NCBI GenBank assembly: GCA_965178125.1
Contig: OZ237764.1
Span: 310,001 to 374,000 of the forward strand
Source: Bilabrum cf. latius
Taxonomy: Eukaryota
Direction: 5' to 3'
Length of the DNA stretch: 64,000 nucleotides
A program made the position numbers and the translations under genes. Shown piece by piece: positions 18,021 to 58,443 of the stretch. Each line of letters opens with the position of its first letter. Positions within the stretch are counted from its first letter, which is position 1. Below the pieces are notes generated by a model. The model did no database searches, was not told the DNA's origin, and worked only from the letters and a program-made list of their open reading frames with translations.

Positions 18021-21000
18021 ATGTCCTCCTCTTTAGGTTTACTGCGCAGTGTTGCTACCGATGGGGGAGTGCTGCATGTGCTAGCACTAGATGCACTCGT
18101 AGCTGCTGTTGTGTTATGCGTGTTTGCTATGTTGGCATGCTGCTGCTCGGATCGATTCGTCACGTGGAAGGATGTGCTCTCGACAGACGGCGACAGGATC
18201 GATGACATTGATGAAGAGGACATGATTGTCGCTACGATTCGGAGGTTTCCGAACAGCTGGGATACGCAAATTGAAAAGAATTCGGACGTAGGCAGTGCCA
18301 CTGGGGTGTCCCGACGGGGGTCTCCACAGCGAACTCTGGGCTCCCCTGGCGGCGCATCAGGCCCGGGCATAGCGCACACCTCGGTGGCTGGCAGCTCCAA
18401 GAGCGGTCGAAGTCAGCAAAGCAGCCAGGACATTCGAATATCAGACGACCCGTTCGCGCTAGCAGTCGCAAAAACAGAAGGCTGCGGAGGAGGCCGGCCG
18501 ATCTATGCTGAGCTAGAGCCGCCCGCCCTGCTCCCCCCGCCATTCGCACCAATCGGGTGCATGGAAACGCCTCTGGCGGAAGGAATGCCCCCAAATACAT
18601 CTGCCCGCATGGTAGTTGCCCCAAAACCTAGCTGGCTCGCGTGCTTTGAGCCCACGTGCGAGATGGCAGTGGCGGATCTCGGCGACGACGACGTGCCAGA
18701 GCACGGCCAGCCCTCCAAGCCCAGCAAGAAAGAGAACAAGAAATTCTGCGGGTGCAGCGAGCGATCATGCTGCGGACTGTGCGGGGTGCTGCGTCAGCTG
18801 GAACAGCTGGGTGATGGAGAGCACCCGGTGGAGCAGCTCAGGGCAGTCCGCACCAGGTCGTCCGTGGCCGTGCAAGGCTGCTTCTCGGCCTGCCATGCAG
18901 TGTGCTGCGTGAATCCAAGGCAGCATGCAACCGCTGGTAGGTTGCCACAGGACGCTTATTTGTATCTCAAGTTTTAGTCCGATGTGCTGTGGGCGGTGGC
19001 AGTGGCAGCGATTGTGGTGCTCGTGCTGATGCCAGTGCATGCAGCCGTCAGACAGGTGGACGCCGATGTGGTGCGAGGAGGAGCGGGGGGTCAATCGCAG
19101 GCACAGGAAGGGCCGAGCGTCGCTCGATTTGTTGCTGGAAATAGTGGCTGGGAAGATGGTGCGGTGATGCAGCACGCGAGTGTTGCAAAGGGTGACATGG
19201 ACCTGTTGGCTGCGCCCTTGGGCCACCAGCGTGGATCTAGAGAGGGCATTTCGAGCGGGTGGGAGGCGAGCGCAGACCAGTCCTTGTGGGAGGGCGTGCT
19301 CATGCGTGACGGGAGATCGGGCGCACTGTTGTAGAGCCAGGGAAGGGAAGGTCTCACGGGTCGCAGCAGTGCGGCTCGCACGGCGAGGGCAGGGGTTAGG
19401 CAGTCGCGGCATAGGGCACGAAACGCAGCCGCAGGGCAGGGCGGTGCTGGGGTACAGTCGATGCAGCATAGAGCATCATATGCAGCCGCTGCGGCACCAC
19501 GACCATCGAAGAACGATACAAAGGCCAGCAAAGGCAAGTCTGGCAGTTTCAATGTGAAGAGCCTGGCCAGCGCAGTGAAAGAGATGGCGAAGGACCCGGC
19601 CCAGGTAGTGCTTGCTTCCAGTCCTATTCGTAAGGCTTTGACTCTCTTTTCGTTCCAGGCCTACACCGCCACTGGGCTGCCTGCTGGTTCGAGGGTTATA
19701 TGGATGCACGTGGCGTGCGGCAGCATAATTGCTGGGGCGATGTGGTTTGCCGTGGCACGCTTGGCAGTGCGCTCTTTCGTGCACGGCAATCGCTGGACCG
19801 ACATGGAGCTGATCAAGAGCATGCAGGCCGACACCGCACGGACCTCGCTCCTGGTATCCAGGCTGGGCCCGATGCGACGGTGGGCGCCGGCCATGCGAGC
19901 CGGTGTGAATCGCGCGATCCGACAAGGATTCGCTGGGAGCCGGTCGTTCCAGCGGAGGATTTTTGCATCCTCTGGGGCAATGCGGCTAGGCTCAGTCCCG
20001 GTAGCCCACGCGGCTCGCAGCGCTGACCCGCGGGCGCTTCTGGATGCCGGGTTGGTTCTCGAGTCCCTCAAGACGCTTGAGCTAGAGCGTGCGCTGGAGT
20101 CGACACCCCGGTCGATGGCACTCGCCCTTGCTGCAGCTGTCGCAACAGAGGCGCAGGAAGCTCTGAGGCTGCTACAAAGGCAGGCTAGGCCTGCTGGTGG
20201 ACATGCCACGTCGCAACACACAAAAACTGCTGGTGGTAGCACGGGGGATGTGGAGAGCCACGGTATGCAATAGAGCCATGGAGAGGACCCAATCGACGAT
20301 GACAGCGCAGTCGCGCCCGTGCGTGCGGTGGTGTCGCTGTCTGTAGACGCTGGAACTGAGTGGACCAGTGCAGGTGTGGCAGGCAGTGCCGCGTCGCCGC
20401 AGAGTGCCAAGGCTGCTGCGGTGGGCCGAGCCGTTGCTTTACTCGACATGGGCGCTGCTGTGCGGCTGAGGCAGTGCCAGCGCGCCGCGAAAGATGCATC
20501 AAAGTTGCCTAGCTCGGAGTCAGAGACCGGCACGGGTGCCGTGCGCGAGCTGACTACGAGCTTAGAGTCGGCAACGCGGGCGGAGAGGTTTCACCGTGCG
20601 TACGTGACTGGGGGGCTGACCGGTCGCTCTCGTTGGCTCACGGCCTGCGACCGCGCGTGCGGCGGTGTGCCTGGGTCCAAGGACGCCGACATGACCCTGG
20701 CCTGGCGCATGGTGCGGTGCAGGTGCTTTGCTTCGTGCGCCATGCGCGGCACTGAGATTGAAGAAGGCGCTGGCAGGGCCTTTGCCCGAGTTAGGCGGGC
20801 GGTGGGACAGGCAGACCGCATCCTGGAGAGCCCCGCCGCCGTAGTGCCTCCCGCGGACCCCATCAGCGACGCTGCAAGCCTTGCCAGCTCCATTGTCGAC
20901 AGCGAAACACATGTGGCCGCTGTACCACCAGCTCTTCTAATGGCAGCTAGCGCGGCACGGCATCCGCTGATTCCGCCTGCGGACCGCCGCCGGTGGGACG

Positions 21001-23346: not shown

Positions 23347-26300
23347 ATGGCTTATCGTCGTCAACCCAGTAACGTGTACCATTTGGATTATACCAGTGTT
23401 GCATTGCGGGGAGAAATTCAGACAAAATTGCTTTCTTACTGCATTATTCTGTGCGCAATACGCGCACTTAGTATAATACACATTCAGTTTACACTGGCTG
23501 GTGAGAAATATGCAGCAATTCGCCTTGAATTGGTTTCTGAACTCGGATCCATGTTCCAAAGCGCTCTCGGCGGGAACGACGATGTTTCGCACCATATTAA
23601 GCTCTCTGGCTGGTGTCGCACGAAATAGGTTGATATGTCAAGGACTATTGTAGGCTATGCTAGCTATGATGACTCGTTTAAACTTGTGAACGCAGTTCGA
23701 AGTCGCTAGCAGCGTATACCCAGGTGCTCTTCCATTGCTAGCTGGCGGTACAATGTCTTTCAGCCTCCCATTTTCGATCAAGACCCAAGTTTAGAAGCAC
23801 ATAAACGTGCTGCAGCATGATGCGGATCCAGTCGCCGGGCTTTTCGAGCTTGCCGCTCATGACGGTGATTTTGCGACCGCACTTATTGAAGGAATTCAGG
23901 ATGACGATGTATGCAACAAACCCGAAATGGAGTACGTGCTAACACCTGATGATCGCAAGGATGCTGTTTGGAGAGCTGTGCTCGCGGTTAGAGCAGCTGC
24001 CGCTGGCCATGAAGAAGACGGGCTAGCCAGGCCGGGCCTGCTCGCCTCCATTGCTGAAGAACTCAGTGCGACGGGCAGCGCACCTTCTGACTTTCACAAG
24101 CTTGTTGAGTACCGGCTTGCAGTTCTAGAGTACGCACTGAGGTTGGACCTGATCTTGAGGTCGACAAAAGACGTCGCGCGGCTAACCATGGACGTCCCAA
24201 GGCCTGCAATGCCTGTGTCAGGTATGCGCGTGGTACGAGGACCAAATTGGTGGTAAGTCATGAGTACCTTGAAACGGTCCAATTGATTGCTGCCATCGAT
24301 ATGGAAACGGGCCACTGTTGCTATGCCGGCTGCAAGCTACCAAGCGCTCCGCTGCCAATGCTAGCAACCTGTGCTCTTGCCAACTATACCGCAACCGCAG
24401 CTGGAAAGACGAAGACGGCAAGAAAGGGAACCTCGGAACTATAAAAACTGTTGCACCCAAGGCTCCTGTGCCCCAGCCAGGCGGCGAGGGTGCCGCAGAA
24501 CAGGGCCCCGCTTGCATCGTCCGCGTGCAGTGGGACGGGAGTGCTTCCATGTCCGATGTGGCGTACCGTTGGAACGTGGTCGTGCCCCCCCTTTCTGACG
24601 AGGCCTCAGATGAGGATAAGGCAAAGCACCGCAAGGAGGGGGGAACTGGCCGCAAGTTTGACCTGCAGGTAGTCGCGATGCCTATGGCCTACACGACCGT
24701 GCTGGCCAGGTGCACGGGCAGCATGGCCTTGGCGCGGTACTCATCAGAGCTGAATACAGATGCCGAGCCCGTATCGCGCCAAGCACTTTTCAAGCAGTTG
24801 CTGAAGCTGCAACCGAATCCCGTACACCACGGCACACTCCAGTGCCAAGCATTCAGGGACACGATCCCTGTCGCCGAGAAGATCGGTGGCATGTCGATGG
24901 ACACCATCGCTGATGTGCTACTGGGCGAAAGTCACGGGTCGCCCAAGGCAATCGAGGCTATGGCGGAGGCTATGCACGCGCAGGCTAACGCCGTGAGCAT
25001 GCACGCAAAGGCAGTCGTGTCTGCATACGGCCGCGGGAACAGGCGCGGCAAGCCAAGCAAGTCGGACCGCAGGAGCATCAACAGGGCCAAGGACAAGGCC
25101 AGGGAGCTGCTCGCCAAGGCCTCGAGCATAAACGACGCAGAGCAGGGCCCCGGTGGGGCTGCCACGGCGGGGATCATGCTGCCCGGTGGACGGCTCCCGG
25201 TCACGAGGGAGGATCTTGGCACAGCCGCCAAGCAGCTCAGGGGTCTGTCGTGGTCCCTTGCGCATGCCGCTTTTCTCCGCATCGAGAAAGCGCTCAGGGA
25301 CGTGAAGAGAGACGGCGCTGCCGATGCTGCTGCAGCCAAGAAGCCGGTCACAGCTCCTGGTCCGGGTCCAGCAGACGAGGACCTATATCAGATGGTTCGA
25401 GCCCTTGGGCCCGACCCATCCGCGGAACTATCCGCGGAGGCCTTCGGCGACGGCCTTAAGAGAGACCAGGGCTACCTCATTAACGGGGCTTTGGAGCGGG
25501 CCGTGCTAAATGCCATGCGCATGGTGATCGGCGCGGCTGCGGAGACGCTCCGCGGCACCGAGGCGTAGCGCTCCATTGCTAAGGCCGCTGGGATCGTGAA
25601 CGCGGCCAAGCGAGCGCAGATCAAGGCAAAGCAGGACATTGCGCAGGCGAGAGCTGCGAGGGAGCAGGCGGAGTAGGAGGGTGATGCCTCGCCTCGCCGC
25701 GGGCGCAGCTCCTCAACGGACAGCGAAGGATCGGCCATGTCCGAGCCCGAGAATGTGGACGCTTTCATGAGGCGAGCAACGGGAGCTGCTGCGGGAGGAA
25801 GTGCGTCTGATGGTTCAGATGCGCCTCCGAGCGCTGCAGTTGCAGCCGGTGGTGCTACCCCTGCGAGTACGGGAGGCACGTCCTTGTCCCATTCTGGCGG
25901 TGAAGACCAGGAGCGGCTGGACAGGCAGATAAGGGACTTCAGGCTTGGCAGCAGGGGGGCACAGGCCGCGGAGGCAGTTGCGCTTGCCGAGCTGGCAGTG
26001 GCACGGTTCATGGCTCGGAAACAGAAGAAGGGCAAGAAGGCGTCTGCGGGCCCCTCGGCAGGGGGTGCTGCCTCTGGAGCGGCTGGGGTGGAGGCGGAAG
26101 ATCCTATCTTGGCTCGCTTGGAGGAGGTGGCCAAGGAGGCTGTGGACCGTGCAGAGAAGGCAGAAGCTTTGGCCGCGCCCGAATCGATCCGCGGGAGCCA
26201 TGGCTTCACTCGTGTGGCTCAGGACAAGGGCATCAACTCTCTCGCGGTTATGGCTGCGGCAGTACTCCGGGCGTCGTCAGTGGCGGTGGAGGCCACGGTG

Positions 26301-29300
26301 GAGCAGATCAGGCAGCTTCTAGCAGAGGCAAAGAGGAGAGGAGGGGACGCAGTCGACTCGGAGATCGAGCACAAGTTCGGTCTGATCTCGAATGCCCTGT
26401 GGGACGGTGTGTGCGGGCGGCTGTGCATGCCCCTGGTTCTGTCTTTGCTGCCGTTTGCCTCGAATCTGCCAGTGGCTATTCTGCTCCTTCCCTCTCTGGT
26501 TCGACTGACAAAGGCCGTCAGCGAAGCAGTGCAGGTGCTGCCAGCTGCTAGACAGTCGGCCAAGGCAAGGGAATAGCACGAGCAGAGAGTACTCAGGTCG
26601 AGCGCAGCGGATGAGATGGCCGGCGGCAGTGGGGGCGGCCAGGGTGGCGAGCACTACGAGACTCCTCCGCCTGCTGAGCCGCAGCATTCTCCGCTATTCT
26701 CAGGCAATTGGAACGCCGACCCGCCCGCGGATATCGAGGGCGGCATGCGAGCGCGCAACCGCTTCGTTGTTGCAACCATGCTGTCGCGGCCCTCCAATGA
26801 AGCTGGTGGCGCGCCGGGGCGCACCCACTGGCTCGTTGACCTTCAGCATACGCTGGTCCTGCTGTCCTCGCGAATGACAGCCACCTCCGTAGCTGGCGTG
26901 CCCGAGGGCCGAGTGGAGCACGCGGCCCAGCCCTGGCTTCAGAGCGGGATCCTATCTGGCGGAGCAGCACTCCGCTCCCTCGAGTCGCTCAGGGCAGATG
27001 CAGCGCGGTCTGCCCACGGCACCGACACGGGCGGTGGGACGGCTCTCTCCGAAGCTGCAGCCAAGATGGCCACGACTGCCGATGAACTGTCGTGGGACAA
27101 CGAAATGTTCTCGATCGCGGCGGGGGAGGCAGGGGCAGCTGCAGGCAGCGGATCTGAAGGAAGGGAACCAGCGGACCCGTCGGTGGCGTCTGCCAACCGC
27201 AGCGCTGCCCTCCTGGCAGAGGACCTCACCCAGACCGTGCGCTGGCAGGCGGCGCTGTGCGTCGGCGAGGACTCGGCGTAGTACCCTGTCAGTGACCAAG
27301 AGGCACTCACGGCGATGAAGGCCGCTGACCCTCGAGTCAACGGCGCGGCACGACCGGCAGCAGATGCTGAGAGCAGCAGCGCTTCAGGCAGCGCGGCGGA
27401 CGATGCAGAAAGCAGGGTCGATGGGCTTAGCGTGGTACAGCTTCAGCGCGTTGCCAGCGACGGCGGCGTGGCTGATGCGGCACGTCACCTGTCCGACGGG
27501 GTAGAGCTCGACGTTGCCGCCGAGATCGAGGGATGCCTGTGGGATGTCGCGATGAACCGGCAGTTCAGTCCCTCGGCGGAGGTTCTCGAGACCATTGCCG
27601 AGGCATGCGCTGCCGCAGCAGAGAGCTGCGAGGACGAGGGGGAAAAGGCTCGTCTGCAGGCAATGTCCGACGTAGCCTCTTCAGCGATTGATCCAGCGAC
27701 AGAAGGATCCCTGTCGTCCTCTACTGTGGGAAAAGCAGTGGTGCACCAGGTGAGAAAGATGACAGGGTACAGGTACAAGCTTCCGGAGGGGGTCCGGCCC
27801 AGGGATGCAGCTCGCGTGCTCGCTGCCCTGTGCAAGCACAGCGGGCTCGGTGTTGAAGTGTACGTGCGTTGTACCGCCGCGACTATGCAGTCAGCACCCT
27901 CTTCGGAGGCCACCAAGGCGGCGGAGAAGCTAGTGTCGCTACCCTTGGGATCTCGCATGACAGTCGCCTGGCAGCAGACGAGGGAGTACTGCCGGTTTGC
28001 GGAGCGGCTGGTGACCTTCGACAGCAGCGATTTCTTCCAGCAGGCGCTCTCGACCATGCCTGAAGACCAGGGCCTCGGCGTGTCCAAGTGGCCCTGGCAT
28101 TCCGAAGCCAATTCCATCGTAAGGCGCAGTGCAGAGTCTGCACAGCGCCGGGCGAATGAGCTCGCTGCGGAGCACCTCGCTGCACGCCGTGGTGGCGGCA
28201 GCAGCGAGAGCAAGGAGGCGGAGGGTGGCGCCGAGGGCGAGAGCAAGGAGGCGGAAGAACCAATAGTTGCAGGCGAGATAGCTCCCGCTGGTATGGCCAG
28301 AGAGGCCTCAGAGGCATCGGAAGAGGCCGAGGCGCAGATGACAGCGGCCGGGGGGAGGCGATTCTATCGCGGCCGGGACGGCATGGACGTGGTGACGAGC
28401 TGGAAGGAAGCTCGGGTGCAGCTTGGCCGCAGGGCTCTGTTCATCTTGGCCATGGCTCCTGCCCAGCGGGTCGCGCGGTACCCGGTGCAGCAGCCAAGGG
28501 AGGCACTGGCACTTGAGAAGCTGCTGGCTGGGGATGAGGCTCGCAGCGGCGACGGCAGCGGAGGCGAGGCACCCGCAGGCTCGCTGGCACCTCTTTCCAT
28601 GTCACGATGGAGGTCTGCTTTGGAGCGAGGGGAAGGCAGCGGAGCCGGATTTGGCGGGGCTGCCGGCTCCGACTTGGAGTTACCGGGAGGAGAGGCTGGC
28701 TCACTTGCCGAAGCAGTCAGCCGCGGGCTGCCTCAAGACGGTGACTCCACCAAGCTGCTGATGGCGAACGCCATCCTGTATATCATGCACGGTGACCGGT
28801 ACCCACCCAGGGTGCTGCTCACTGTGATGCGGGCCAGGCACGCAAGGGCAGCACAGCGAAGGTACGGCCTGCGAGCTGCTCTTGCGCTGCTCAAGGTGGC
28901 ACCGCAGGCTGTGTGTCGCAGGGAGGTGCTGGCTCAGCTGAGGCCCGCGCTTCGAACCAAGGTCTCGTGGGGCTCTGGGCATGCTGGCCCTGTATCGGCG
29001 ACTGGTAGTGTCGCTGCCAGCCAGTCCCACGCCGCGGCTACCTCGGCCAATGGTGGCCCTTCCTCTGGTGCCGGTAGTGGTGGTGGCGCCCCGCCGTCCG
29101 CTGCCGATAGCAGCCCCGGTTTTGATCCGTTCACGGGAGCTGCGGTGCCATCGGTCGGTGTTGCAGATGCACCTGCAGTAGCTGAAATGGCCAGCGTGGA
29201 CCTGAAAGAAGAGACTGAGGAGGCCCGCAGGCTGAGCGTGACTGTGCGTCATCACGCTCTGAAGGGCCTCGAAGGGGTCGACACGAGCGCTCGCCGGGCG

Positions 29301-32300
29301 GTGTTCTCTGCGTTTGTCGAGGTGGGCGTCCTCGTGTCGGAGCTGCAAGCTGCCAGCGAGGAAAACGGCGAGGTGTTGCTTTCACACGCATGCCAGTGGC
29401 TGCTGGGTACGGATCATCAGGCTTCAGAGCACGAATTCATCCTCAGGACGGGCATCCTTCCTCGGCTGTACGCGTCTTTCAGCATCGTGCCTGGTCCGTT
29501 GCTGCTGCACGGGGCCGGTGGCTCTCCTGCTGCGAGTGGCCGCGGGGCCAGGTAGTCCCAGTGGTCGGCTTGGTCGGAGGATTTCGTGCGTCGCGCTATG
29601 GCGAGCGGTACCCTGTCTCGTTGGGAGCTGCTGGCCCACGTCGCATCGGCGGGAGCGCCCCCAGGTGACGCGAACAAGGCCTGGTTCGAGGACACTGGGC
29701 TGCCCGGCACGGAGGCGGGCGCACTGGCACGGTCCCTATCGGAGGCCCAGGCCATCGCGCTGTACAGAGAGGCAGCGCGCCGCTGGGAGGCGGCTGGGCA
29801 AGCACCGACTGGCAGCTCGGTTGTCGGGCACGCGGGCTCAATGTCCGCTCCGCCCATGGCCCGCCTCGCATCCACAGATGCACCCGGTGGGGTCGCTGGT
29901 CCGGCCAGCCCTGATGCCGTGGTGAGGGCGAACCTTCGGAGCAGTTCGTGGTCGTTGTTTAAGAGGATCACTGTGGGGGCAGTGGGCGTCCGCAGGCGCG
30001 ATGGGTTTGACTGGATGCAGTCGGTTGTGGCCTGCCATGGCCCCGCCATCGCACGAGACGCCTTGCAACTGGCCTGCCTGCCGTCTCCCGTTGAGGCCTC
30101 CGCCGGAGGAGGTACTGGCGTGGCCCCTGCGATCAAGCCAGTGGACCCGAACGCGGTGGCGGCCGTAGTGAACCTGAGCCACATCCATCGCGACGCCCAG
30201 CCAGCCAGTGCCACTGCCGCATGGTTCGCGGCACACGCCGATCGCGCACGACAGCTTGTGGCAGGTGACCTGTCTGCCGGAGAGGGAGACCAGGCGGACC
30301 GGCCCGCCATCACCCAAGGCCCCGCCGCGGGCAGCGTATCTTCCAGTGGCAAAGCGATCGACACTGCGCAGCGCATTCGTCACACTGTGTGGCTGTGGAG
30401 GCGGGCACTCGCCTGTCTCGCAAGCGAGACCATCTCAGCGCTGGCCGTGGTGGCTGCATCAGCAGCCGAAGGGCTGCCCGCGGGATCCGACCCTCTAGCT
30501 GTAGCTGCAGGCGTCCTGGGTGGCGGGGGGACAGGCCCCGCAGCATCTACGGCAGCCGCCCGCGCCGCTGGGCTGCTTGACAGCGTCACACCGGCTGCTG
30601 CCGAAGATGCCTTGTACCGGAGCCTGGCCCTGTTTGCCTCCACGCGCACTGTGCCAGCGGTGACCAGCGCTCTGCAGCAGCCCGCCATGCTTCGGCTGCT
30701 GGCGCTGGCCACGAGGTTTGGGTCGCTCAGGGTGCAGCGCACATCATTGCGGCTGTGGACCTCCCTCCTTGGAGCCGTGGATCTGTCAGTTGCTGATGCG
30801 TGCGTGCAGGATGCGCTGAAGTGCACACCGCAGGCATCCGCCGTTCTGCAAGACTCGGCGTCTAGTGGCCCAGGCCAGCTAACCGCCCGATGGCTCGCTC
30901 TGATCGTGGGCAGCACTTCCCCTGTGGCGCATGCGAGGCAGCAGATGGGAGTGGACGGCAAGCCCCATGCGCGAGAGGACAAGCCCGAGGCTGCAGCCAC
31001 AGCCAGGTTTCTCACAGTCGGGGGGCTCGTGGTGCCGCGCCTCAGGGGGGCGGGCCACCACATCACTGACATGGCGGAGGAGGCCGTCAGTGCCCTCCGC
31101 CGCATGCTTCGCTGGGCCGAGACTGCCGCCGTACTAGCCAGGCAGGCCAGCATCGATGACGATGCCGCGGCAGGGGGAGCGAGTCCCACCCTCTCGAGGA
31201 GCAATTCCATTTAGGCGGGTGAGTGTGGGCCCATGTGGAGCGATGCTATCTGCGTCGTGCTACGAGCCGCATTTAGCACCGACGCTGTTGCTGCCGCCAA
31301 AGCTGCACAAGACGAGCAGGCTGCCCTGGCCATACAGGCAGATGACACAGCTGCAACGTTGGCCGCTTCCGGTGGAGATGCCAAAGCTTTGTAGCTGAAA
31401 GCAGATGGCAAAGACGGCGGTGTGGGGACGGCAGGTTCAGCCAATACGCCGGCCTCCCATGCGCACGCGCTGTGCATGCTTCAGTCGGCCTTGGCAGTGT
31501 TGGAGGGTCACATTCCCGTGCTTCGGGTGGGCGGGCTGGTCTGCACCTCGGAGCAGCGCGCCAAGGCAGGTTCGCACGCCGAGCTGAGCGCGCTTCGTGA
31601 GCGCCATGCTGCCCTGGTGGTGGACTACGATCCAATGGCGTAGCCTTCGCACCAGCCGGGCGTAAGGATCGTTGAGGACAGCGGGCGCGGAGACGGGCCG
31701 GGCGGCCATGTCCAGGCAGATAGCCTTGTTGCTGCCGATACCCTGACCCCGCTCGGGCCTGCGCCAGCCCCTGCCTCTGCCCTGCGGAATGTGCTCGGCG
31801 CGTCTTCGGATGGCTCGTCACCCATGGAGGTGCTGCGTCAAGTGCTTGAAGTGGCCGCTTCGCTGAGAGTGTCTCCACCTGCAGAGGACGATGACGAGCT
31901 GAGAGGCAGGGAACAGGAGGAGAGCAAGTAGGAAGTAAGCGCATAGGCTACTGGCCTGTCGCGCTGCGAGGTCCTGGACTCATCGTCAGCAGTGGTGCAG
32001 ATTGCCGCAACTGGGCTCCGGTCACTTGAGGTTGCAGTTGCGGTGCAAGAGGTGGCAATGGAGGCAGTACGTGCTGGCGTGTTGGCGACCATCCAGGGGC
32101 TCGCCGAACAGGTGGTTGACCGCAGGAGAGTGTTGTCGCTCGATTTAGCGCTGCTGAGGAGCGTCCATCTTCGGGAGCGCATGCTAGAGTGGGACGCTGG
32201 CTTGATATTTGGTGCCGCGTGGCAGGCAGTTAAGTCTGAGAAGGAGCTGTCACCCGCAGAGCAAGAGCGCAAGGTCCAGGCTGAGGGTATTGCGGGCATG

Positions 32301-35300
32301 CTTGGCATGTCCGTCGAACTTGCTGTTCGCGCTCTGAAGGTCAACAACGACGACGCCAACGCCGCCGTCAACTGGCTCATGGAGGGCCACGGCGAGGCAC
32401 TCGAGTCGGGAGGAGGCCTAACAGAGGGGCCGCAGGGTAGGACGGACAGCGACAAGAGGCTCAAGCTGGCCATGGAACTCGCCTAGAACTTCGGCAAGCC
32501 GCCTCTGATCGTGATCCGTGCCCTGGAGATGTTCGGGGACGACTAGAATCGCGCCATGGAGTGGCTCATGGACAAGGGGGACAGATACATCCCCGGCCTG
32601 TCGGTGCCGGACGTCCCCGCCGCGATGCAGACGGGTCGGGGCGCGGCAGGCACGAGTTAGATCCCCAAGCGATTCCTCCAGGTGGCGGGCGTGGTGCCCA
32701 AGGCTTCGTCCGGGGAGGAAGACGAGGCCGAAGCAGGCGATGCTGGGACCAGTGGAGCTTCCGACCAGATCGATGATTCGGCAGCAGTGGAGGACCTTGA
32801 TGTGGGTCAGGTGGAGCCGATGGTGCAGGAGTGTGACCCCAGAAGGGTTGGATCCCTGCTGGGCGCGCCTGCCGGCAGTGGTGGTGCTGGGGCTGCTAGC
32901 GCGGCGCGCGGCCCCGGGTTGGGCGGCGGGAGCGGTGACGGCGACTCAAGCAGCGCCGTGCGCAGAATGAGGGTTGCTTATCGGACCACTGCACGCGACG
33001 TCTCGTCCTTCTCTGATCTGTCAGCTCGGGTGCAGCTGCAGACGATGGACCGGATGGTGACCGCCGTGTTGGACGGACAGGTGGATCACTCTGAGATCTT
33101 GGATCTCATCAACACCGCTATTCGGACCTCGAGGGGCAGCTCGCCGTCGCAGGTCATGGAGCGCGTGTACGACTCCCTCGCCGAGTTGACAGATGCCTAT
33201 GGGTAGGAGCTTCCGGAGTTCGAGCACTTCATGGAGGAGGGCCCGGAGGCATTTGCACAGATTAACGGGCTCGAGGATCTCGATGAAGCGGGCGGTGACT
33301 ATTCAGGCCTTCATTCCTACAGTGATATTGATGCGCAGCTTAGGGGCTATGACCAGTCTAGCCGCTACGGTCGACCCGCTGCAAGGGGCGCTCCGTCCTC
33401 TTCATCTGCCGCCGGAACTCTCCACTTGGGGCAGGCAGTCAGCTCCAAGAGGGGCAAGAACCGGCGGAACGCGCGTCGCCAGTCGAAACCCACTAGGGAG
33501 GGTGCTGCACCTCGCATGCAGCTGGCGATCGGTGGGGCCGTGCTGCTCGCCCGTGGGCCCGTCGCCGATGCAGCCGCGACTGTGCTGGGCGGGAGTGCTC
33601 TGTCCTCCGGCACAACGGATGGCGCAGCTACGGGAGGGCAGTCTGGCACGGGGCCGGGCGTAAGCCAGGGTGTTGGCATTCCGTTCGCAATCGGTGTCAG
33701 GGCACTTGCACCGGAGCTTGAGGGTGGAACCTCTAGCACCGGTAGCCGCCCTGCCGGCCGCATGATCGGCGTGGACGATTTCGGCCGATTCAACAGATAG
33801 CTCGCGCAGGCACAGGTGCTGGAGCGCCTGGTGGAAGCTGGCTTGGAGGCGGACGAGGGCCAGCTGCGGACGGAAATTGACGCCCACAACAAGAAGTACG
33901 AGAACACGAGGCTGGCTCGTCTGGAGAAGCACCGCGAGAGACTTAGGCGCAGGAGGAGAGGACGGAGAGGAGCCGGGGCTGGGCTGGGCGCGGGAGATGC
34001 GGGCGGGAAGAGCAAGTCAGCGGAGCCAGCAGTCGTGCTTGGGCCTGGCGAGGAGGACGAGGACGCGAGCTGGCTGGTGCGCGTGCCGGTGGCCAAGGCA
34101 GCGGAGTTCGCATCCAGCCTGTGCGGGCCTCTTCATATTGTGAGCGCGGTGGAGAACGGAGCCGATGATGATGAGTACGCACGGGCAGAAGAAACGGGAG
34201 TGCTCGTGCGACTGGGGACTGGAGCCGAGGCAGCCTCTGGGGCAACTCCGTCCGCTATCGTTTGCCTCGACACGGAAAGGTCGCTTCCGCGCGTCGTGCT
34301 CTGCAGGGTTGGGCAGCTTCGCGCCCACTCCCACACCTTTGCGTACCCCGTGACATCGTCTGGCGATGCGAGGACTGTGGCAGCAGCAGCTGATCTGGCC
34401 GTGGCGGTCCTCACTGCCCGCCGTGCCTTTGCTTCCATGCTGGTCTCTTGGCCCACGCAGCTACCGCACCCTCTCGGGTAGGGTGCAGGCAGCGACCTGG
34501 CCATGCGCCCTGCAGAGGGCAAGTCAACCTCTCAGGCCAGCACCCACGATGACGATACCGCAATCGCCGCGGCACAGGTGGTCGCCCGCAGCAGCTTCCT
34601 GCGCGTCCTCAAGCTGACAGCAGCAGCGGAGGACGCGGTCGCTGGGACGGGCAAGATCCCGACCGGGCAGGGCCTGGGCATTGGCAGCGACGGCGCGCTG
34701 ACTCTCCCCAGGGGGGTGCCTGCCATCTCGGCCCTCTAGCTCTTGCTTAGGCGCTGTCTCGCGTCGGAAACGTCCCGCATGGAGCAGGGCCTCGAGGACG
34801 ACCCTGCGGTTGCGAGCGGCGCAGCGGCCGCAGCCAGTGGTGCCGGATCCAGGGCTGACGCTAGCCCCTTGTTCTCTCGCTCCCTGGTCGCAGAGGTCAG
34901 CCGGAACATCCTGAGCGCCACCAGGGTCGGGGGGGCGCCATCCGCGGAACGGAAGATGCGGGAGTCGCTACATCCCCACATACCGAGCGGCAACGCATTC
35001 GATACTATCACGTGCCCGGGAGCTCGTGCCTTGTGGATCACCTTTGACCCGCGGTGCAGCCTGAGCGGCGGCACCGTGCTTCGGTTCCGAGGGGGGTCCA
35101 AGAAATCGGGTGCCACAACAGGTCAGTTCACTGGGGAGGGCGAGGCATGGCGACCCTTCGTGGTGCACGGGGACACTGTCAACGTCGAGTTCGCAGCGCA
35201 GGCCAGGGAACACTGCGGGTGGGGCTACCGCTTCTGGGTGGCCCCCATGCACGGCCTGCAGTGGGAGAACGAGGCGGAGGCGCCCGAGGAGGGGTCCCTC

Positions 35301-37844
35301 GAGTGGGCCCTCTTCGTCCTTGAGCTGCTGCTGAAGGACGCAAGCTCGCTGGTTGAACGTGGCGCGCTGCACGACACCGAGGTGTTTGGGGCCATGGTGC
35401 AGTACCTCAGGGCCAGGGGCAGTCCCTTCAAGCACAGGATCGTAGCCCTTCTGACCCAGCTGCTAAAGGACGTCAGGCTGTTCAAGCAGGAGGGCGGGCC
35501 GGATCTCGAGCCTCTCCGCGGGATCGAGCGGGCGGTCCTGTAGCACTGCTGCAACCTGCTCAAGGAGAGGGGCAGGGGCGGCAACTCGGCGCTGCCCCCG
35601 CAGCTGCTGCAGCTGGTCGAGCTGCTCATTACCGCGCGCACCGCAGAGAGGTCCATCCGCGCTGCTCAGCGGAGAGAGCGACGGGAGAGGGCTGCCAGGG
35701 AACAAGGGCCCGCGTCTGGAGCCGGTGGAGACGGCGTGGGCATGGGCCCGCCGGCGGTCGGGACGAAGTCGACAAGCGTTGCCTCTGTGGACGCAGCGGG
35801 TGTAGTGGATCCGCAGGGAGAGGGTCTCATCTTCCCGCCGCCAGAGGTACCGAGCGCAGCTGAGACGCAGCAGCTGCAGGCAGAGCTGGAGCGGCTGCAG
35901 CAGGCCGCACAGCAGAGGCAAAGGGAGCTGCAGCAGCGGCAGCAGCAGCGCGGGCGCCGTCGCTTGGGCGTGCCTCGAGACCCGGCCGACCAGGATCTGC
36001 AGAGAGCTACGCCCCAGTCCCTGTCCACTGCTCTCGTCGACGTGATGGATATGTGCGAGAGTGTATTCCTGAAGAAGCGGCTGCCGGACCAGGTGCTTTG
36101 GCACGTGGCCCTGGACAGCGGCTGGGTAAAGGACCCCTGTGAGATCACCCCCGATGTGCTATCGGAGCTCTGCAGGGACCTGCTCGGCTGGGGCACGGAC
36201 GCCGACGAAGAGCTGGTGCAGTGGGTCACCACCATCACCTCCCCTGCGAGGAGGGCCCGCGTCGCCAGCGCCAAGGAGGCCGCCAAGAAGGAAGGCGGCA
36301 AGAAGGAGAAAGGAGAGGGCGCAGAGGCCGGACTCAAGTCGGTCAGCGACAGCGGTGCTGGCGATGCCACGGATGCTAGCGACTTGTAGGCCGCAGCCGT
36401 AGAGATGGCATCGGACACGGACGACGCATTCGCGTTCCAGAAGGTGGCGGCTGCGCCTATCCGGAGCACGCGAGCTCGACTCTCTCTCCTGCAGCTCATG
36501 AATCGTCGTCTGCGGTTGGTGATGCCTCTGGTGGACGTGGTGCACGCCACTGACGAGTTCTCACTGGGGTACAAGCTCAGGTCACTGTCGCACTGCATCT
36601 TCCTCGAGTGCAAGCAGGGCGTGCTGTGGAGCGCAGTGGAGCAGACAGAGGGCAGGAGCAGCGGGAAGGAGATCAACCTGGACAACAACGTGGCGGGCCA
36701 GGCCACGGATGCAGCCCAGCGCGATCCGTCCGCCCGATAGGTGGGCACCTACCGCGGCGTGTTCCCTCAGGCATACGAGGAGCTGAAGGGGATCGGAGCT
36801 GCGGCCTGGCGCGCACCCGCCGGCACCGATTCGGGCTCGAAGCTGTTCCGCGTGTCGTTCCGGGGGGAGAGCGGGATCGACGCCGGCGGGCTGTTCCGGG
36901 ACTGCGTGCAGCGGATCGTGGAGGACGCTTTCAGCGAGCACTTCGCCCTGCTGCGCAATGTGCCCAACGGGGTCACCAAGGTGGGCGACAACATGGACAA
37001 GCGAGTGCCCGACCCCACCATCGTGCGGAGGTCGACCGATGCGCAGTGCATGCTGGAGTTCCTGGGCAGGATGATGGGCTTCTCGCTAAGGTGGAAGCAC
37101 TATTTGCCGTACGACTGGGCGCCACTGGTCTGGAAGCTGCTGCTGGAGGCAAAGCCCGATGCCAGTGACCTCATGGCGATCGACAGGCAGGCTCACGCGA
37201 GACTCGAGAGGATCAGACAGTGCCCCTCCTAGGAGAAGTGGGAGTCCGAGTTCCCGGGGCAGACATTCACCTTCCCGGACTGCACGGGCAAGGAGCGCGA
37301 GCTGTTCAGCGGGCAAGGTCACCGTCAGGTCCGCTTCGAGGAGAGGCACATGTTCGCTGATAAGGCCCTTGAGATGAGGCTGAGCGAATTTAACGTGGGC
37401 GTGGCTGCCGTGCGCAAGGGGCTGCAAGTGTGCGTGCCCGCCCGCACTCTCAAGCTGTTCACGTGGCGCGAGCTCGAGCAGCTTTGCTGCGGCGATCCGC
37501 TCGTGGACGCTGCCTACCTCAGGCAGCACACGCACTACTCGGACGGGTATTCTGAGGAACATCCCGTGATCTAGAGGTTCTGGAGGGTGTTCGATTCGCT
37601 TCCGAACAAGGACCGCTCTGATTTCGTCAGGTTCTCCTGGGGTAGAGCACGCCTTCCGAGGCCGGAGCACTTCACGACACCCTTCTCGATCCACGGGATG
37701 GGCGGCGGGGATTCAGCGCTGCCAATGGCGCACACTTGCTTCTTCCAGGTGGACCTGCCGCAGTATTCCTCGGATGAAATCATGCGTCAGAGAATCGTGG
37801 CTGTGTGCAAGTACGGGCTCGGCGGCGAGTTCCTGAACGCCTGA
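23347..37844 (+). CDS. Giant HECT E3 ubiquitin ligase (~4,770 aa) with MIB/HERC2, two UBA-like and a CUB-like domain
   Basis: MIB/HERC2 motif GMRVVRGPNWC|WKDEDG...VRVQWD...YRW, reconstituted by intron 24253-24400. UBA-like repeats at ~32290-32580 (AVRALKVNNDDANAAVNWLME; IRALEMFGDD*NRAMEWLMD). CUB-like ESLHPH...LWITFDPRC...WGYRF. HECT domain with F.GE.GIDAGG, HPVI*RFW and catalytic AHTCFFQVDLPQYSS. More than 20 in-frame TAGs; ends TGA 37842. Probable short intron 23650-23695; 5' structure less certain. Confidence 0.9.
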
Positions 37845-38132
37845 GGGCATCGTGCGGTCCCCGGATGGAGGCGAAGCTTGGAGAGCGGAAAACCATTAGA
37901 TACAAGTTGATCTTTTAAAACGATTCTACATCAGTAAAACATCGTCAGCCCGCGGGGTGGAGCTACTGCTCTGCGCCCCTTGGCCGGCGATTCGGATTCC
38001 CCGATCAGATTCGGATGCTCAGCGACGCATCAACGTCCACGACATCTGCCTCGCAAAGTTCGCCCCTTGCAGTCGCCCGCACCAGCGCAAGCTGCTTCCT
38101 TGCTTCGCCAAGAAGAACAAGCAAGTGCCCCT

Positions 38133-41555: not shown

Positions 41556-41682
41556 CCTGGATCGCGGCAAACCCTTCCAGACGGTTGTCGTGGTCCGACC
41601 GCTGTGACCTGCTGTGCCCAGCTTAGTCAGAACATGTTGGCGTGAAAGTAATGCTGAGGTGCTGATATGCTTTCGAATCGAG

Positions 41683-48029: not shown

Positions 48030-48578
48030 GAAAGCTTTTGGGAGAAGAGAGAATATGAAAAGAAAAAGTAATTCAAACGGGACAGCACAGAGGCTGTATG
48101 AATGCCATGTCGGTGCGCCCAACTGCATTTCGAGCTCAAACCGCACGTTACCACCGTTTCGTAAGGTGGGCAACTGCCTCATAGACGAGCGAGCGTACCC
48201 AGACTATTTCAGCTTCGCAACAAGTAAAACGTCAATAGAACAACTGGAATAATGGCTCGACCGGTCCCGAGATGCGCCCGGTATCAATGCATCGAATCGA
48301 GCAAGGCAGACTCCACTGCCAGTGCAGGTCAAGTGGATGGATCCCCGTCCGACCAGGCGCTAGATACGTGTCCATCGGCGTACACAGCTTTATCACCGAA
48401 CGGCCAACTAAACGCACGTTCACTGTCTAGATCGAATTCAAAGACTGCATGCACAGCTCTAAATGGCATGCAGCAGCAGCTGCAAGCATAGCTCAACCAG
48501 TGGTTGGCCTCACCAAGGGTGCACCGCACGGTAGCGAAAGGACCAGTTGATCTCCAGGCGGCACATAGTCGGGCAACG

Positions 48579-51500
48579 ATGAATTATCAGTCTGATCTGG
48601 AGCAACAGATCATACATAGACTGTATGCATACCCGGGGGCTGCCATTTTGCTCAGAGAATGCGTGATTACGGGTGTGTGTGGCCCGTGCTCCGCGAGGGC
48701 AATTGGCATCGCGCACCCGTCGGCGCTTGTTTTGCAAGACAGTGAAATCAGAGCAATCATCTAGAATCTGGTCCAACTACCATCCTATTCCATGGATCGA
48801 GACAAAGGGAAAACATGTCCTGTGTGCGCCGGCATGTCACAGCGGACTGGAGTGCTAGATGCGAAAGGCAAGCTTTACTATGCTCAAAACTCAGGGAGGT
48901 TCACTGACCACAAGACAACAAATGAGAGATCGGAGGTGAATCGTTCTATGATGCGCCAAGTCCGAAATGAGCAGGAAACTGTCGAAGCAGGCGGGCGCTT
49001 GCACGTCGCTGCCCGCTCGTTCGGACTGTCCAATGGCGACACAATCGAAGGAGAGGAAGCCTCATCTATGCGAGCCCAGAGCCTGCACGATGCTACCGTT
49101 CCACTGCTGCAGGGTCGCCGCCACAAGACGAATGAGGTCACGGTCTCTCTCGCGCTCCCGCCTGCAGTGGCCCTCCGTGACGCCTACTTCATTCAGAGGA
49201 TGCGGGTCCTTTTCGCGGCTGCAGCACAATCGATGCCGGAATCTTTGCACCGGGCCGGCCAATCATCTTCCAGTGCAGCACTTGCCGAGCCCCCGGCTAA
49301 GAAATCAAGGGTTGGTGAGCAGCCAACAGCTAGCACCACAGCCGTCCATCAGACCGCCGCACTCGGTCTACCATGGGGCATCGCGGACCTCAAGTCGGAC
49401 CTCAAGCGCGGCCTCCAGCTGCACCTGGAATCCGCTGGATACAAGGTGCAGCACGACGCCGAAATTGACGTATCGACAGTCATGCTGGCGAGCGACGTCG
49501 ACGACAGCGCCGCTGCCCTGGCCGTGCCAATCCTAACTAGGCACAGGGGGGTTGACACGCTGGACGCGGTGCAGCGGCTGGGCAAGCGATTCAAGCAGGC
49601 GGGGAACAAGAGATAGAGGGGAATCGATGCCCTGAAGGCTGCATCCGGTGCTGAAGATGCCGTGACGAGTGCGACTTCAGAGGCCCCGCAGGTCCCGATG
49701 CAGGGTGCGGGAGCGTCGACGTCCGAGGTTGGGGTGAAATCCAGCGGCAGCCCGGCTGCCAGCGCCTCTGCAGCGACTGCCGGCGGTGCAAGCTTGACCT
49801 CCAGCTGTAGCTCCAGCCCCGGCTCTGGTTCTGGCTTAAGCAGCAGCTCCAGCATTCCCTCTGCATCGTCTGCTGGCCTCGTGGACCCTGAAGTGGCCCT
49901 CATGTGCGCCCACCTCGTACCCGCTCAGCTGGCCCCCTCTCTTCTGCGGAAGGGCCTGGGTGCCAGTGACCTCTGTGGCGGGGGTGTGCTCCCAGCGGGT
50001 GGCGCGGCCTAGCTGGCAATGATGGCGAGGATGAGCCAGGCACGGCTGGAGAAGGTTCTCTATGGGATCGCGTGGGCCGGTGAAGCCGGCGGGGAGCAGC
50101 TGGCAGACGAGGCGACCGCTGCCTGGAAATCTCTGGAGGAATCGGGGTTCTGCGAGCGGCTTAGGGGTGGTGCGTTGGATGGCTCAGGCCCCACCGCTGG
50201 CTCGGGTCAAGCCTCCAGCCGGGCAGCTCCTTCGAGTTCACCAGAGAATCCCAAAGTGGCCGGGCACCCGCTGCCTCCCATGGATGACCTGCGGGAGCAA
50301 TACGGGCGCGGGCTGCTGCCCTCCCCAGCGCACGGAGGCATGCCCTGGCCCCTTCCGTAGCCGTTTCTCCCTGTTGCTTTCAGGGTAAACGTGTCGCACG
50401 CGCCCGTCTTCATTCGCGGGAGGTACCTGAAGCTGGCCAGGGGCATCAGCCAGTCGCCGTGGACGCTGCCTGCGGGCGAGACGGCAGGCAATATGGCCGA
50501 AGGAGCGCAGGCAGGTACCGGCGGTGCAGATGAAGACGATGAGGAGGATGAGGAGGAGGATGAGGAGGAGGAGGATGCAAGCAGCAAGAGTGGCGGCGGG
50601 GCATCGACCAAGAGTCGCACCGGCCGAAGCATCCGCAACGTGGAAACTGACGTGTGCAGTCCCTTGAAGAGGATGTTCGGGAGCCCCGCCGCGAAATTGA
50701 TCGGGTCTGGGCGGGAGGACCGAGACGTCAGGATGCTGGGCAGGGGACGGCCGTTCGTGGTGGAAATTTTGGACCCGTAGGACACGCTTGTGGGCGAGGA
50801 CGGCTTGAGGCAGGCTCAGATCGAGATCAATTTCGCGGGGGATCAAGCGGGCCTGCAGAGGGCCCTGGCAGCCGAGCGAGCTAGAATCCATACGTCTGCA
50901 AGTGGAGGCAGCAGCGCAGAAGGCGAGCAGTAGGTCTCGTCCGCTGATGAATCAACACTATCAACCTCGCGTAGTATCGCAGCGCAGCAGGGGGCAGGGG
51001 CGGCAACAGCAACAGCAACCGGCCCGCAGCAGGAGTCTACCATGGCGGCGTATCTCGCCTCCGGATCCGTTGAGTTCGATGAAAGCCAAGGAACAAGTGA
51101 TGTGCAGGTGCGCGGGCTGGAGTTCGGCAACAGGTCCGACGTACTTGGGATGCAGCAAGGTGCATCGGTCAAGCGCAAGCACTATTGCGCCCTCTGCTGG
51201 TGCAAGGCATCCCTGACACAGGCAGTGCTTGACGATAGGCTAGGGTCGCAGAAGGACCTGCTCGTGCATCAGCTGACCCCCGTGCGCGTGCTGCATCGCC
51301 GCACGGCCATGACGAGGAAGAAGATGATCCACTCGATGAGCGCCGAGCTCGTGAATGAGCACTGGTTCGTGCTGCGGCTAGAGACGAGCGCGGGGACGTA
51401 CGTGAAGGAATTCGTGCACGGTGACATGGGACGGACTGCCCCCAACGTGGGGGACCTGCTTGGAGGCAGCTGCGACATTTTGCAGCTGGATGTGACTGGT

Positions 51501-51701
51501 ATCGTGGAGCCGCCACCGGGGACCATGCTGCCGGCTGCACTCCGGGGGTCGGGTTAGGGGTCAGCTAGAAACGATGGGAAGAACCGTGGGGGCGGTGGAG
51601 ATAGGAGAGGTGGTAAGGGTCGTGGACGTGGTAGGGGGCGGGGCAGGGGCAGGGGCAGGGGCAGAGGTAGGGGCAGGGGCAGGGGCGGAGGGAGACGTTA
51701 A
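48579..51701 (+). CDS. PUS10: tRNA pseudouridine synthase Pus10 with insertions and a C-terminal RG tail (~1,040 aa)
   Basis: N-terminal CxxC pairs (CGPC, CPVC), VFIRGRYLKLARGISQSPW, catalytic GREDRDVRMLGRGRPF, QLTPVRVLHRR, and AGTYVKEFVHGDMGRTAP...LDV. Seven in-frame TAGs. Ends TAA 51699-51701. The frame is also open upstream to ATG 48252. Confidence 0.9.
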
Positions 51702-58200: not shown

Positions 58201-58443
58201 CGTCTGCAGGTCAGACGATTCACCCCAGGCACGAAGCGCGACGACTATCTGTATCGCGGTAATATTTGCACCCCAAAGAGCGGTCTGGGAAGGGGCGGGG
58301 CTTCCAACTGAGAATGACGGAGCGGAATCGACAGCAACGGGCTCGGCGGAGCCTTGGACCCTAAGATTGACAGGAGCAGGCGGCACCATGACGGCTGCTG
58401 CATAGCACATGCTAATCAGCATTGTTCCAGCTTGTGAGACCAT
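55249..58443 (-). CDS. Alpha-L-rhamnosidase, GH78 (~1,064 aa)
   Basis: WDSGK...YRGEPLLSSSRYVW*ARIW, SGLGAY, FMYTGYRY, IPTDCPTREKRGWMGD, STIWERW and SWAHIMFGG. The ORF pieces join in frame across six TAGs; ends TGA. Confidence 0.9.

What the first reader, a model, noticed from the sequence alone, without database searches (positions are those of the whole stretch)
37560..37590. TAG occupies Gln-favoured positions in conserved motifs, pointing to Gln as the amino acid
The HECT C-lobe reads HPVI*RFW (TAG 37572), and this motif is commonly HPVIQWFW. TMEM63-like DAYLYLKF*SD (18975) matches the family DA..YLxFQ. GH78 RYVW*ARIW (58102-58104, minus) matches Y.WQVRVW. EF-hand ERIF*LMD (38591) and the residue right after the GH141-like signal peptide (62533) also suit Gln. 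The consensus residues are recalled, not computed.
Basis: partly seen in the sequence, partly recalled or inferred. Interest (0 to 1): 0.85.

Follow-up and report, generated by a model that had tools for sequence, protein, structure and literature searches.

The report
TAG codon read as glutamine
This stretch of a GC-rich eukaryote's genome uses the usual stop codon TAG as an ordinary codon for glutamine, a rare kind of genetic-code change that is already known from a few other protists.

Summary
There are 99 in-frame TAGs in 15 long ORFs (18,155 codons). ORFs reach 4,523 aa only if TAG is read through.

In distant homologues the TAG columns are weakly conserved. Gln ranks first only narrowly over Lys, Ser, Asn and Glu, while Leu, Tyr and Trp are clearly excluded. 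The GH78 "motif" column is mostly Lys/Arg, and the EF-hand column is Asp in the one solved relative.

The decisive evidence comes from close relatives (92-97% identical). At 14 window TAG sites they have Gln 10, Lys 2, Ser 1, Glu 1. At all 9 distinct places where their ORFs break on an in-frame stop, the window has CAG. Two further breaks coincide with window TAGs.

A 59%-identical GH78 orthologue on a metagenome contig has 8 in-frame TAGs, no TAA and a TGA stop.

TAA is not reassigned: 0 in-frame where about 22 would be expected. Stops are TGA in 16 of the 17 genes whose 3' end lies in the window and TAA in 1.

This is the UAG-only-to-Gln code (NCBI table 15 type) in an unidentified lineage. 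It is not Amoeboaphelidium. No suppressor tRNA or eRF1 gene could be examined.

The parts
37572..37574 (+). The TAG of the finding, in the HECT C-lobe (HPVI-TAG-RFW), HECT protein residue 4434
   Evidence: sequence. Gln in close relative P0001. Gln in HECTD3 and one HUWE1, Arg in another HUWE1.
24273..37844 (+). Intronless 4,523-aa open frame with a C-terminal HECT domain; 22 in-frame TAGs; ends in TGA
   Evidence: Pfam HECT E 1.7e-50. 14 of its TAG sites are covered by close relatives: Q 10, K 2, S 1, E 1.
31641..31643 (+). TAG (HECT residue 2457) shared as an in-frame stop with one relative (P0211 ends just before it) and read as Gln in another (P0210)
30831..30833 (+). Example of a window CAG (HECT residue 2187) where one relative's ORF (P0165) breaks on an in-frame stop and another (P0211) has Gln. 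The other such CAGs start at 26304, 27231, 28905, 29022, 31653 and 49416 (+ strand) and at 56935 and 56626 (- strand).
   Evidence: all nine window codons at these sites are CAG.
18975..18977 (+). TAG in the N-terminal membrane part of the RSN1/TMEM63-like protein (ORF 17952-23285, 6 TAGs)
   Evidence: translation; RSN1_7TM E 4.2e-8 at residues 1285-1489 only. No alignment over this TAG could be obtained.
55249..58443 (-). GH78 alpha-L-rhamnosidase gene, 1,064 aa, 6 TAGs (58168, 58102, 57745, 56587, 55816, 55456); TGA stop
   Evidence: Pfam Bac_rhamnosid6H E 2.3e-57. Columns in 150 homologues. Orthologue L001.
55816..55818 (-). TAG (GH78 residue 876) conserved as TAG in the 59%-identical orthologue on L001
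38573..38748 (-). Middle exon of a calcineurin-B-like EF-hand gene; holds the TAG at 38591-38593. Flanked by GT..AG introns at about 38489-38574 and 38749-38853.
   Evidence: Joints in X5 contigs. Spliced translation. CBL2 alignment with Asp at the TAG.
62533..62592 (+). Two TAGs (62533, 62590) at the N-terminus of a GH141-like beta-helix protein (ORF 62350 to the window end)
   Evidence: PDB BT_1002 (GH141) E 6.8e-10; Arg and Ser at the 62590 column.
48228..51701 (+). Pus10 gene, 8 TAGs. The only ORF ending in TAA (51699-51701). The TAG at 48762 coincides with the end of relative ORF P0207.
   Evidence: Pfam Pus10_C E 5.5e-67.. The frame after the TAA has GC3 0.53 and a TGA after 73 codons.

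Best explanation
The window is nuclear DNA of a GC-rich, intron-poor eukaryote whose genetic code reads UAG as glutamine. UGA (mostly) and UAA remain stops, which is the NCBI table 15 type of code.

Shown here: TAG is translated through in essentially every long gene. It stands unchanged in spliced transcript contigs. It interchanges with CAG between close relatives in both directions. TAA is not used as a sense codon.

Inferred from what is established for other UAG-to-Gln lineages, and not shown here: decoding by a tRNA-Gln with anticodon CUA, probably derived from a normal tRNA-Gln, together with an eRF1 that no longer recognises UAG efficiently.
For: (1) Sense use. There are 99 in-frame TAGs, 0 TAA and 0 TGA in 15 ORFs totalling 18,155 codons. 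ORFs of 4,523, 1,918 and 1,777 aa are open only with TAG read through. Pfam domains lie downstream of TAGs: HECT, Pus10_C, GH78, GT61.

(2) Close relatives. These are ORF pieces called with TAG as a stop. P0014 is identical to L001 2298-3233 and ends on a TAG in the DNA. 14 window TAG sites in the HECT protein are covered by relatives that are 92-97% identical: Q 10, K 2, S 1, E 1. The chance of 10 or more Gln at a 3.9% Gln background is 7e-12.

(3) Reverse direction. 9 distinct in-frame stops of relatives align with window CAG (9 of 9, never CAA), and 2 more align with window TAG.

(4) Three-way sites. Examples are window CAG / relative 1 Gln / relative 2 stop, and window TAG / Gln / stop.

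(5) The read-laying table shows 31212 T>G, that is TAG to GAG, matching the Glu in P0210 and P0211.

(6) L001 carries a GH78 orthologue at 59% identity with 8 in-frame TAG, 0 TAA and a TGA stop. In well-aligned parts its TAGs match window CAG twice, GAG once and TAG once.

(7) Distant homologues, 9 columns: Q has the highest summed log-odds (0.78). L is -7.5, Y -8.3 and W -10.2.

(8) No editing. X5 contig 1 joins across the two EF-hand introns and covers 31001-38486 (17 TAGs) with 0 differing letters. X7 contig 10 covers 34780-37870 (5 TAGs) with 0.

(9) TAA. About 22 in-frame TAA would be expected from CAA/CAG = 0.22 if TAA were Gln; 0 are seen (P 4e-10). Stops are TGA in 16 of the 17 genes whose 3' end lies in the window and TAA in 1.
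Against: At 4 of 14 TAG sites the close relatives do not have Gln (K, K, S, E). That is more than at ordinary Gln codons (5 of 131; Fisher P 0.005). I read this as TAG arising or persisting at weakly constrained sites, and as the effect of counting only sites where the relative's codon differs. This reading is an inference.

In distant homologues Gln is never a strong consensus at a TAG column. Two of the better-populated columns are Lys/Arg-dominated: GH78 column 114 (K 55, R 26 of 120) and Pus10 column 851 (K 17, R 6 of 36). Lys scores nearly as well as Gln overall.

TAG is not enriched next to Gln codons: 9 of 198 neighbours against a background of 0.047.

No tRNA gene is in the window or in L001/L002. 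No genome is held. So the decoding tRNA and eRF1 are unseen. There is no protein-level evidence. Except for L001 and one site, the relatives' stop codons are inferred to be TAG rather than seen.
Confidence: 0.9

Rival explanations
1. TAG encodes another polar residue (Lys, Glu, Ser or Asn), and the Gln seen in relatives is conservative replacement.
For: Two of the better-populated TAG columns are Lys/Arg-dominated. Summed log-odds for K (0.58), S (0.28), N (0.17) and E (0.08) are close to Q (0.78). Close relatives show K twice, E once and S once at TAG sites. The EF-hand column is Asp in CBL2.
Against: Close relatives have Gln at 10 of 14 TAG sites, while ordinary K, E and S codons stay unchanged at 91-96%. 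If TAG were Lys, AAG would dominate. All 9 relative stops align with window CAG, and none with AAG, GAG or TCG among the >=85%-identical relatives.
Confidence: 0.04
2. TAG is ambiguous. It is read as Gln inside genes but also ends some genes depending on context, as in Condylostoma, karyorelicts or Blastocrithidia.
For: It cannot be excluded from one window. A gene ending at TAG would simply look like a longer frame here. Several ORFs have long low-complexity tails of unknown reality.
Against: Where the true C-terminus can be judged it is followed by TGA: the HECT domain runs to the last residues, and the GH78 gene and its orthologue L001 end at the same place. All 17 genes whose 3' end lies in the window end in TGA or TAA. 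TAGs lie throughout ORFs, including 90 codons before the HECT stop.
Confidence: 0.05
3. Both UAA and UAG are reassigned to Gln (table 6 type, as reported for Amoeboaphelidium), and TAA is merely rare because of GC bias.
For: UAA and UAG usually change together (PMC11687900 and PMC5304391, passages). The genome is GC-rich, so TAA would be the rarer of the two.
Against: There are 0 in-frame TAA against 99 TAG. A/G third-position ratios in other NNR pairs are 0.14-0.34, which gives about 22 expected TAA (P 4e-10). L001 also has 8 TAG and 0 TAA. All nine window codons opposite relatives' stops are CAG, never CAA. The Pus10 frame after its TAA loses coding character.
Confidence: 0.03
4. The TAGs are not translated as such: RNA editing to CAG, pseudogenes or assembly errors.
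For: None specific. Contigs drop rare variants, so partial editing cannot be excluded.
Against: Spliced contigs of two runs carry the TAGs unchanged. TAGs occur in relatives at other positions, and one is conserved at 59% identity. Four runs hold the identical sequence. Third-position-biased divergence from X9 shows purifying selection on these frames.
Confidence: 0.01

Closest known systems
UAG-only reassignment to glutamine (NCBI translation table 15 type), reported for the fornicate Iotanema spirale, the ciliate Protocruzia tuzeti and two groups of phyllopharyngean ciliates
   Same: UAG is read as Gln, UAA is kept as a stop, and UAG sits at Gln positions of relatives (passages of PMC11687900 and PMC5304391).
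   Different: This is a GC-rich (58-66%), intron-poor genome in which UGA is the main stop (16 of 17), whereas the ciliates cited end almost always in UAA (PMC11687900 passage). By gene content (GH78/GH10/GH141, giant HECT), base composition and the Pus10 tree, it is neither a ciliate nor a fornicate. That placement is a weak inference.
UAR (UAA and UAG) to glutamine, NCBI table 6: many ciliates, Dasycladales/Cladophorales, Hexamita, Streblomastix, Amoeboaphelidium protococcarum
   Same: Same amino acid. An algal-associated protist is among the known cases (Amoeboaphelidium), and a relative of this window occurs in a run labelled algae metagenome.
   Different: TAA is not a sense codon here. 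Amoeboaphelidium genomes are 40% GC (PMC10608142, Table 1 passage), against 62% here.
UAG to leucine (uncultured rhizarian exLh, some ciliates) and UAG to serine (Scotinosphaera)
   Same: Only UAG is reassigned, and UAA is kept as a stop.
   Different: The amino acid differs. Leu is rejected (log-odds -7.5; 0 of 14 in close relatives). Ser appears once in 14.

Membership tests
UAG-to-Gln nuclear code (table 15 type) | In-frame UAG inside conserved protein-coding genes | tested here: met
   99 TAGs in 15 ORFs, with Pfam domains downstream of TAGs.
UAG-to-Gln nuclear code (table 15 type) | UAG positions correspond to Gln in homologues | tested here: met
   Close relatives: Q at 10 of 14. Relatives' stops opposite window CAG at 9 of 9. 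Distant homologues alone are inconclusive: Q 0.78 against K 0.58.
UAG-to-Gln nuclear code (table 15 type) | UAA not used as a sense codon | tested here: met
   0 in-frame TAA against about 22 expected. One ORF ends in TAA.
UAG-to-Gln nuclear code (table 15 type) | UGA still a stop | tested here: met
   16 of the 17 genes whose 3' end lies in the window end in TGA. There is no in-frame TGA.
UAG-to-Gln nuclear code (table 15 type) | A tRNA with anticodon CUA and glutamine identity | not testable with these tools
   No tRNA in the window, L001 or L002. No genome is held. Rfam found nothing.
UAG-to-Gln nuclear code (table 15 type) | eRF1 altered in its stop-codon recognition motifs | not testable with these tools
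   No eRF1 gene in the window.
UAG-to-Gln nuclear code (table 15 type) | Gln found at UAG sites in the protein | not testable with these tools
   Needs proteomics.
UAR-to-Gln code (table 6) | UAA also read as Gln | tested here: not met
Context-dependent (ambiguous) stop/sense codes | The reassigned codon also ends genes | tested here: inconclusive
   No gene in the window needs TAG as its stop, but one window cannot exclude it.

The most novel reading that the evidence does not exclude
The window comes from a so far undescribed clade of GC-rich, intron-poor eukaryotes, possibly stramenopiles by the Pus10 tree. This clade would have evolved a UAG-only-to-Gln code independently, with UGA as the main stop. 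The code would be old within the clade, because it is shared by lineages only 59% identical in GH78, one TAG being conserved. TAG and CAG are still turning over between near-identical strains. The clade turns up in algal samples and in runs filed under four different organism labels.
Probability: 0.4. Interest if true: 0.7.

Novelty: new member of a known kind. Interest (0 to 1): 0.55.

Why it matters
Nuclear code changes in which UAG and UAA part ways are few. Every independent case bears on how release-factor specificity and suppressor tRNAs co-evolve.

A GC-rich lineage that keeps UGA as its main stop would contrast with the ciliate cases, which end in UAA.

There is also a practical point. 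Gene callers using standard or bacterial codes cut this organism's genes into pieces, and the database entries found here are such pieces. Its proteins are therefore mis-annotated in public collections. Annotating this genome requires table 15.

Tried and rejected
- No whole genome is held, so no genome-wide tRNA or eRF1 search was possible.
- The look-up of sequencing runs: no RNA holder listed. The RNA origin of X5 and X7 rests on their spliced joints only.
- Read laying printed only 40 of 1,702 differing positions. The planned codon-by-codon TAG/CAG comparison with X9 therefore gave one site (31212). It was replaced by the database ORF pieces.
- PDB searches found nothing for the whole TMEM63-like protein, nothing for its N-terminal 150 aa, and only chance-level hits for the CFA20-like part.
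- TAG next to poly-Gln: no enrichment (9 of 198).
- ESM Atlas gave Pus10 family hits but no usable taxonomy.
- A genome-contig scan with P0001 found no relative.
- Rfam: 0 matches.
About 58% of the protein and 14 of its 22 TAGs are covered by close relatives.
- The careful Pus10 tree did not finish, so only the quick tree was used.
- Amoeboaphelidium was considered as the source and rejected on GC content.
- A green alga was considered and rejected only by argument (few introns, no green-algal top hits). It was not tested.
- Supplementary files of the code papers were not seen.
- Rows left out: the distant-homologue test dropped 12 close or lineage relatives (P0001, P0014-16, P0018, P0164-167, P0169, P0207, P0208) and columns with fewer than 8 residues. 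ORF-piece ends of P0208/P0216, P0015 and P0018 were not counted as stop sites from the protein data, because the alignment or the contig end was uncertain. L001 later showed that the ends of P0014 and P0015 are TAGs.
Full report
**What is there.** The window is 58-66% G+C. Under the standard stops no frame exceeds 758 codons. If TAG is left open, frames of 4,524, 1,919, 1,778, 1,158, 1,113 and 1,065 codons and more appear.

Fifteen long ORFs hold 18,155 codons with 99 in-frame TAG, no TAA and no TGA. Counting the EF-hand exon there are 100 TAGs.

Pfam identifies eukaryotic proteins:
- GYF, CFA20-like, PHD and RSN1_7TM (TMEM63/OSCA-like) proteins;
- a 4,523-aa HECT ligase (E 1.7e-50);
- GT61, TPR and Pus10 (E 5.5e-67);
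- an Ank-RBR ligase, GH78 (E 2.3e-57) and GH10;
- a beta-helix protein whose best solved relative is GH141 BT_1002.

The TAG of the finding reads P V I TAG R F W at 37572.

**Gene structure and transcripts.** Contigs of runs X5 and X7 join across three GT..AG introns on the minus strand: two in the EF-hand gene and one in an eIF4E-like gene at 46899-48024. An X8 contig covers 36862-39088 unspliced. The tool only guesses that X5 and X7 are RNA. The spliced joints and the gene-by-gene depth are my grounds for treating them as transcript assemblies.

X5 contig 1 covers 31001-38486 (17 TAGs) and the EF-hand exon holding the TAG at 38591, with no differing letter. X7 contig 10 covers 34780-37870 (5 TAGs), likewise with none. 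So the TAGs are in the transcripts. Editing to CAG is not the explanation, although contigs cannot exclude a minor edited fraction.

**Which amino acid: distant homologues.** The data were:
- 150 GH78 representatives;
- 40 Pus10 hits, of which 4 close relatives were dropped;
- 13 HECT homologues.

These gave nine TAG columns with at least 8 residues. I scored each column against substitution frequencies learned from the non-TAG positions of the same alignments. The sums are Q 0.78, K 0.58, S 0.28, N 0.17, E 0.08, R -0.23, then L -7.5, Y -8.3 and W -10.2.

TAG therefore sits at polar, poorly conserved positions. Hydrophobic and aromatic meanings are excluded, but Gln is not separated from Lys, Ser, Asn or Glu.

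- The HECT column has Gln in HECTD3 and one HUWE1 sequence and Arg in another HUWE1. It has Gln in 3 of the 13 nearest database homologues, one of which is the close relative.
- The GH78 column is K 55, R 26, T 11, Q 6 of 120.
- The EF-hand column is Asp in CBL2.
- The TMEM63 motif could not be tested.

**Which amino acid: close relatives (decisive).** The protein collection holds ORF pieces from organisms 92-97% identical to the window in the HECT protein and 85-87% identical in Pus10. These pieces were called with TAG as a stop:
- they begin with M where the window has other residues;
- they break in frame while similarity continues into the next piece;
- P0014 is identical to L001 2298-3233, and the DNA shows a TAG at its end.

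Fourteen TAG sites of the window's HECT gene fall inside such pieces. The relatives have Gln at 10, Lys at 2, Ser at 1 and Glu at 1. With Gln at 3.9% of the compared positions, 10 or more of 14 has P = 7e-12. No site shows Leu, Tyr or Trp, although TGG is also one transition away from TAG.

In the other direction, the relatives' pieces end on in-frame stops at nine distinct places where the window has a Gln codon, and every one is CAG:
- HECT residues 678, 987, 1545, 1584, 2187 and 2461;
- Pus10 residue 397;
- GH78 residues 503 and 606.

Two further ends fall exactly on window TAGs (HECT 2457, Pus10 179).

Three sites show all states among three lineages. At HECT 2187 and 1545 the window has CAG, one relative has Gln and another has a stop. 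At HECT 2457 the window has TAG, one relative has Gln and another has a stop.

The one TAG site visible in the truncated read-laying table (31212, T>G) agrees with the Glu seen in the protein pieces. This is the pattern expected of a synonymous TAG/CAG transition drifting between strains.

**A caveat that I cannot fully explain.** Four of 14 TAG sites are non-Gln in the relatives, against 5 of 131 ordinary Gln codons (Fisher P 0.005).

Part of this is a counting effect. Only sites where the relative's codon is not TAG can be seen, so unchanged sites are missing from the denominator. The rest suggests that TAG codons sit at weakly constrained positions. All four alternatives (AAG, AAG, GAG, TCG-type) are one-step neighbours of TAG.

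**A more distant relative with DNA.** L001 is a 4,637-nt metagenome contig with 58% G+C. It carries a full GH78 orthologue with 619 of 1,041 aligned residues identical. It has 8 in-frame TAG, no TAA and a TGA stop at the same C-terminus. In well-aligned parts its TAGs face window CAG twice, GAG once and TAG once (GH78 residue 876, a conserved TAG). The other four lie in poorly aligned parts. The code is therefore shared by a clade, not by one strain.

**TAA and stops.** CAA/CAG is 0.22 and the other NNA/NNG pairs are 0.14-0.34. If TAA were Gln, about 22 in-frame TAA would be expected; none is seen (P 4e-10).

Sixteen of the 17 genes whose 3' end lies in the window end in TGA. Pus10 ends in TAA, after which GC3 falls to 0.53 and a TGA follows within 73 codons. 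So the code is UAG-only, not UAR.

**Who is it.** Not identified.
- It is not Amoeboaphelidium. TAG and TAA are reported to appear to encode Gln there (PMC6299283 passage), and its genomes are 40% G+C (PMC10608142 Table 1 passage).
- Named top hits for Pus10 are oomycetes at 50-53% identity.
- In a quick, single-gene tree the window falls, on a long branch, in a 15-row clade with the oomycetes (SH-aLRT 95). This is a weak hint of stramenopile affinity, no more.
- The identical sequence is held by runs under four organism codes in four studies. A roughly 10% diverged relative is in a run labelled algae metagenome.

**Literature.** I read passages of PMC5304391, PMC11687900, PMC6299283 and PMC10608142. 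All other papers were seen only as search listings.

UAG-only-to-Gln is reported for Iotanema spirale, Protocruzia tuzeti and phyllopharyngean ciliates. UAR-to-Gln is reported for ciliates, ulvophytes, Hexamita, Streblomastix and Amoeboaphelidium.

Seven full-text searches turned up no report of this code in a GC-rich or stramenopile-like lineage. That is absence from the held library only, and supplements were closed.

**Mechanism.**
- Shown: TAG is transcribed unchanged, lies in frame in conserved genes, and behaves as a synonym of CAG.
- Inferred from established knowledge of other stop-to-Gln codes: a tRNA-Gln(CUA), one anticodon change away from tRNA-Gln(CUG), plus an eRF1 with weakened UAG recognition.
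- Neither component is in the window.

**Verdict.** The phenomenon is a known kind of code variant (table 15 type) in what may be an unreported lineage.

Noticed in passing
window 38489-38574, 38749-38853, 47551-47805 (minus strand): Only three introns were seen in the 20 kb laid with reads. Two of them share nearly identical ends (GTGAGAC...CATCGCAG). Otherwise the genes are intronless, including a 13.6-kb ORF.
   Followed up: partly
window 55249-63999: A cluster of secreted, bacterial-type carbohydrate enzymes: GH78, an unknown 488-aa ORF, GH10 and a GH141-like beta-helix protein. GH78 and the GH141-like gene carry TAGs. GH10 has none in 671 codons (3.7 expected, P 0.026), which could mean a later acquisition or chance.
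   Followed up: partly
window 31001-51000, runs X1-X8: The same sequence, with no differing letters in the listed pieces, is held by runs filed under four different organism codes in four studies. In X8 it is at depth 2-3 beside much deeper unrelated contigs. This suggests a co-cultured or contaminating eukaryote.
   Followed up: no
window 46899-48024 (minus strand): An eIF4E-like gene with one 255-nt intron has by far the deepest contigs in X5 and X7 (600 and 160). It has no TAG in the part seen, and a TGA stop.
   Followed up: partly
window 7815-9413 (minus strand) and 7857-8984 (plus strand): Two long open frames overlap on opposite strands. The minus one has a weak B_lectin match and a signal-peptide-like start. 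The plus one is probably a shadow frame of a GC-rich gene.
   Followed up: no
window 41683-44166 (minus strand): An 827-aa secreted-looking protein with 5 TAGs has no Pfam family at E 0.01.
   Followed up: no
L001 1-1454: The 1.4 kb upstream of the GH78 orthologue shows no long open frame in the gene's frame. It contains TAA and TGA stops, so it is probably intergenic or belongs to a gene on another frame or strand.
   Followed up: no
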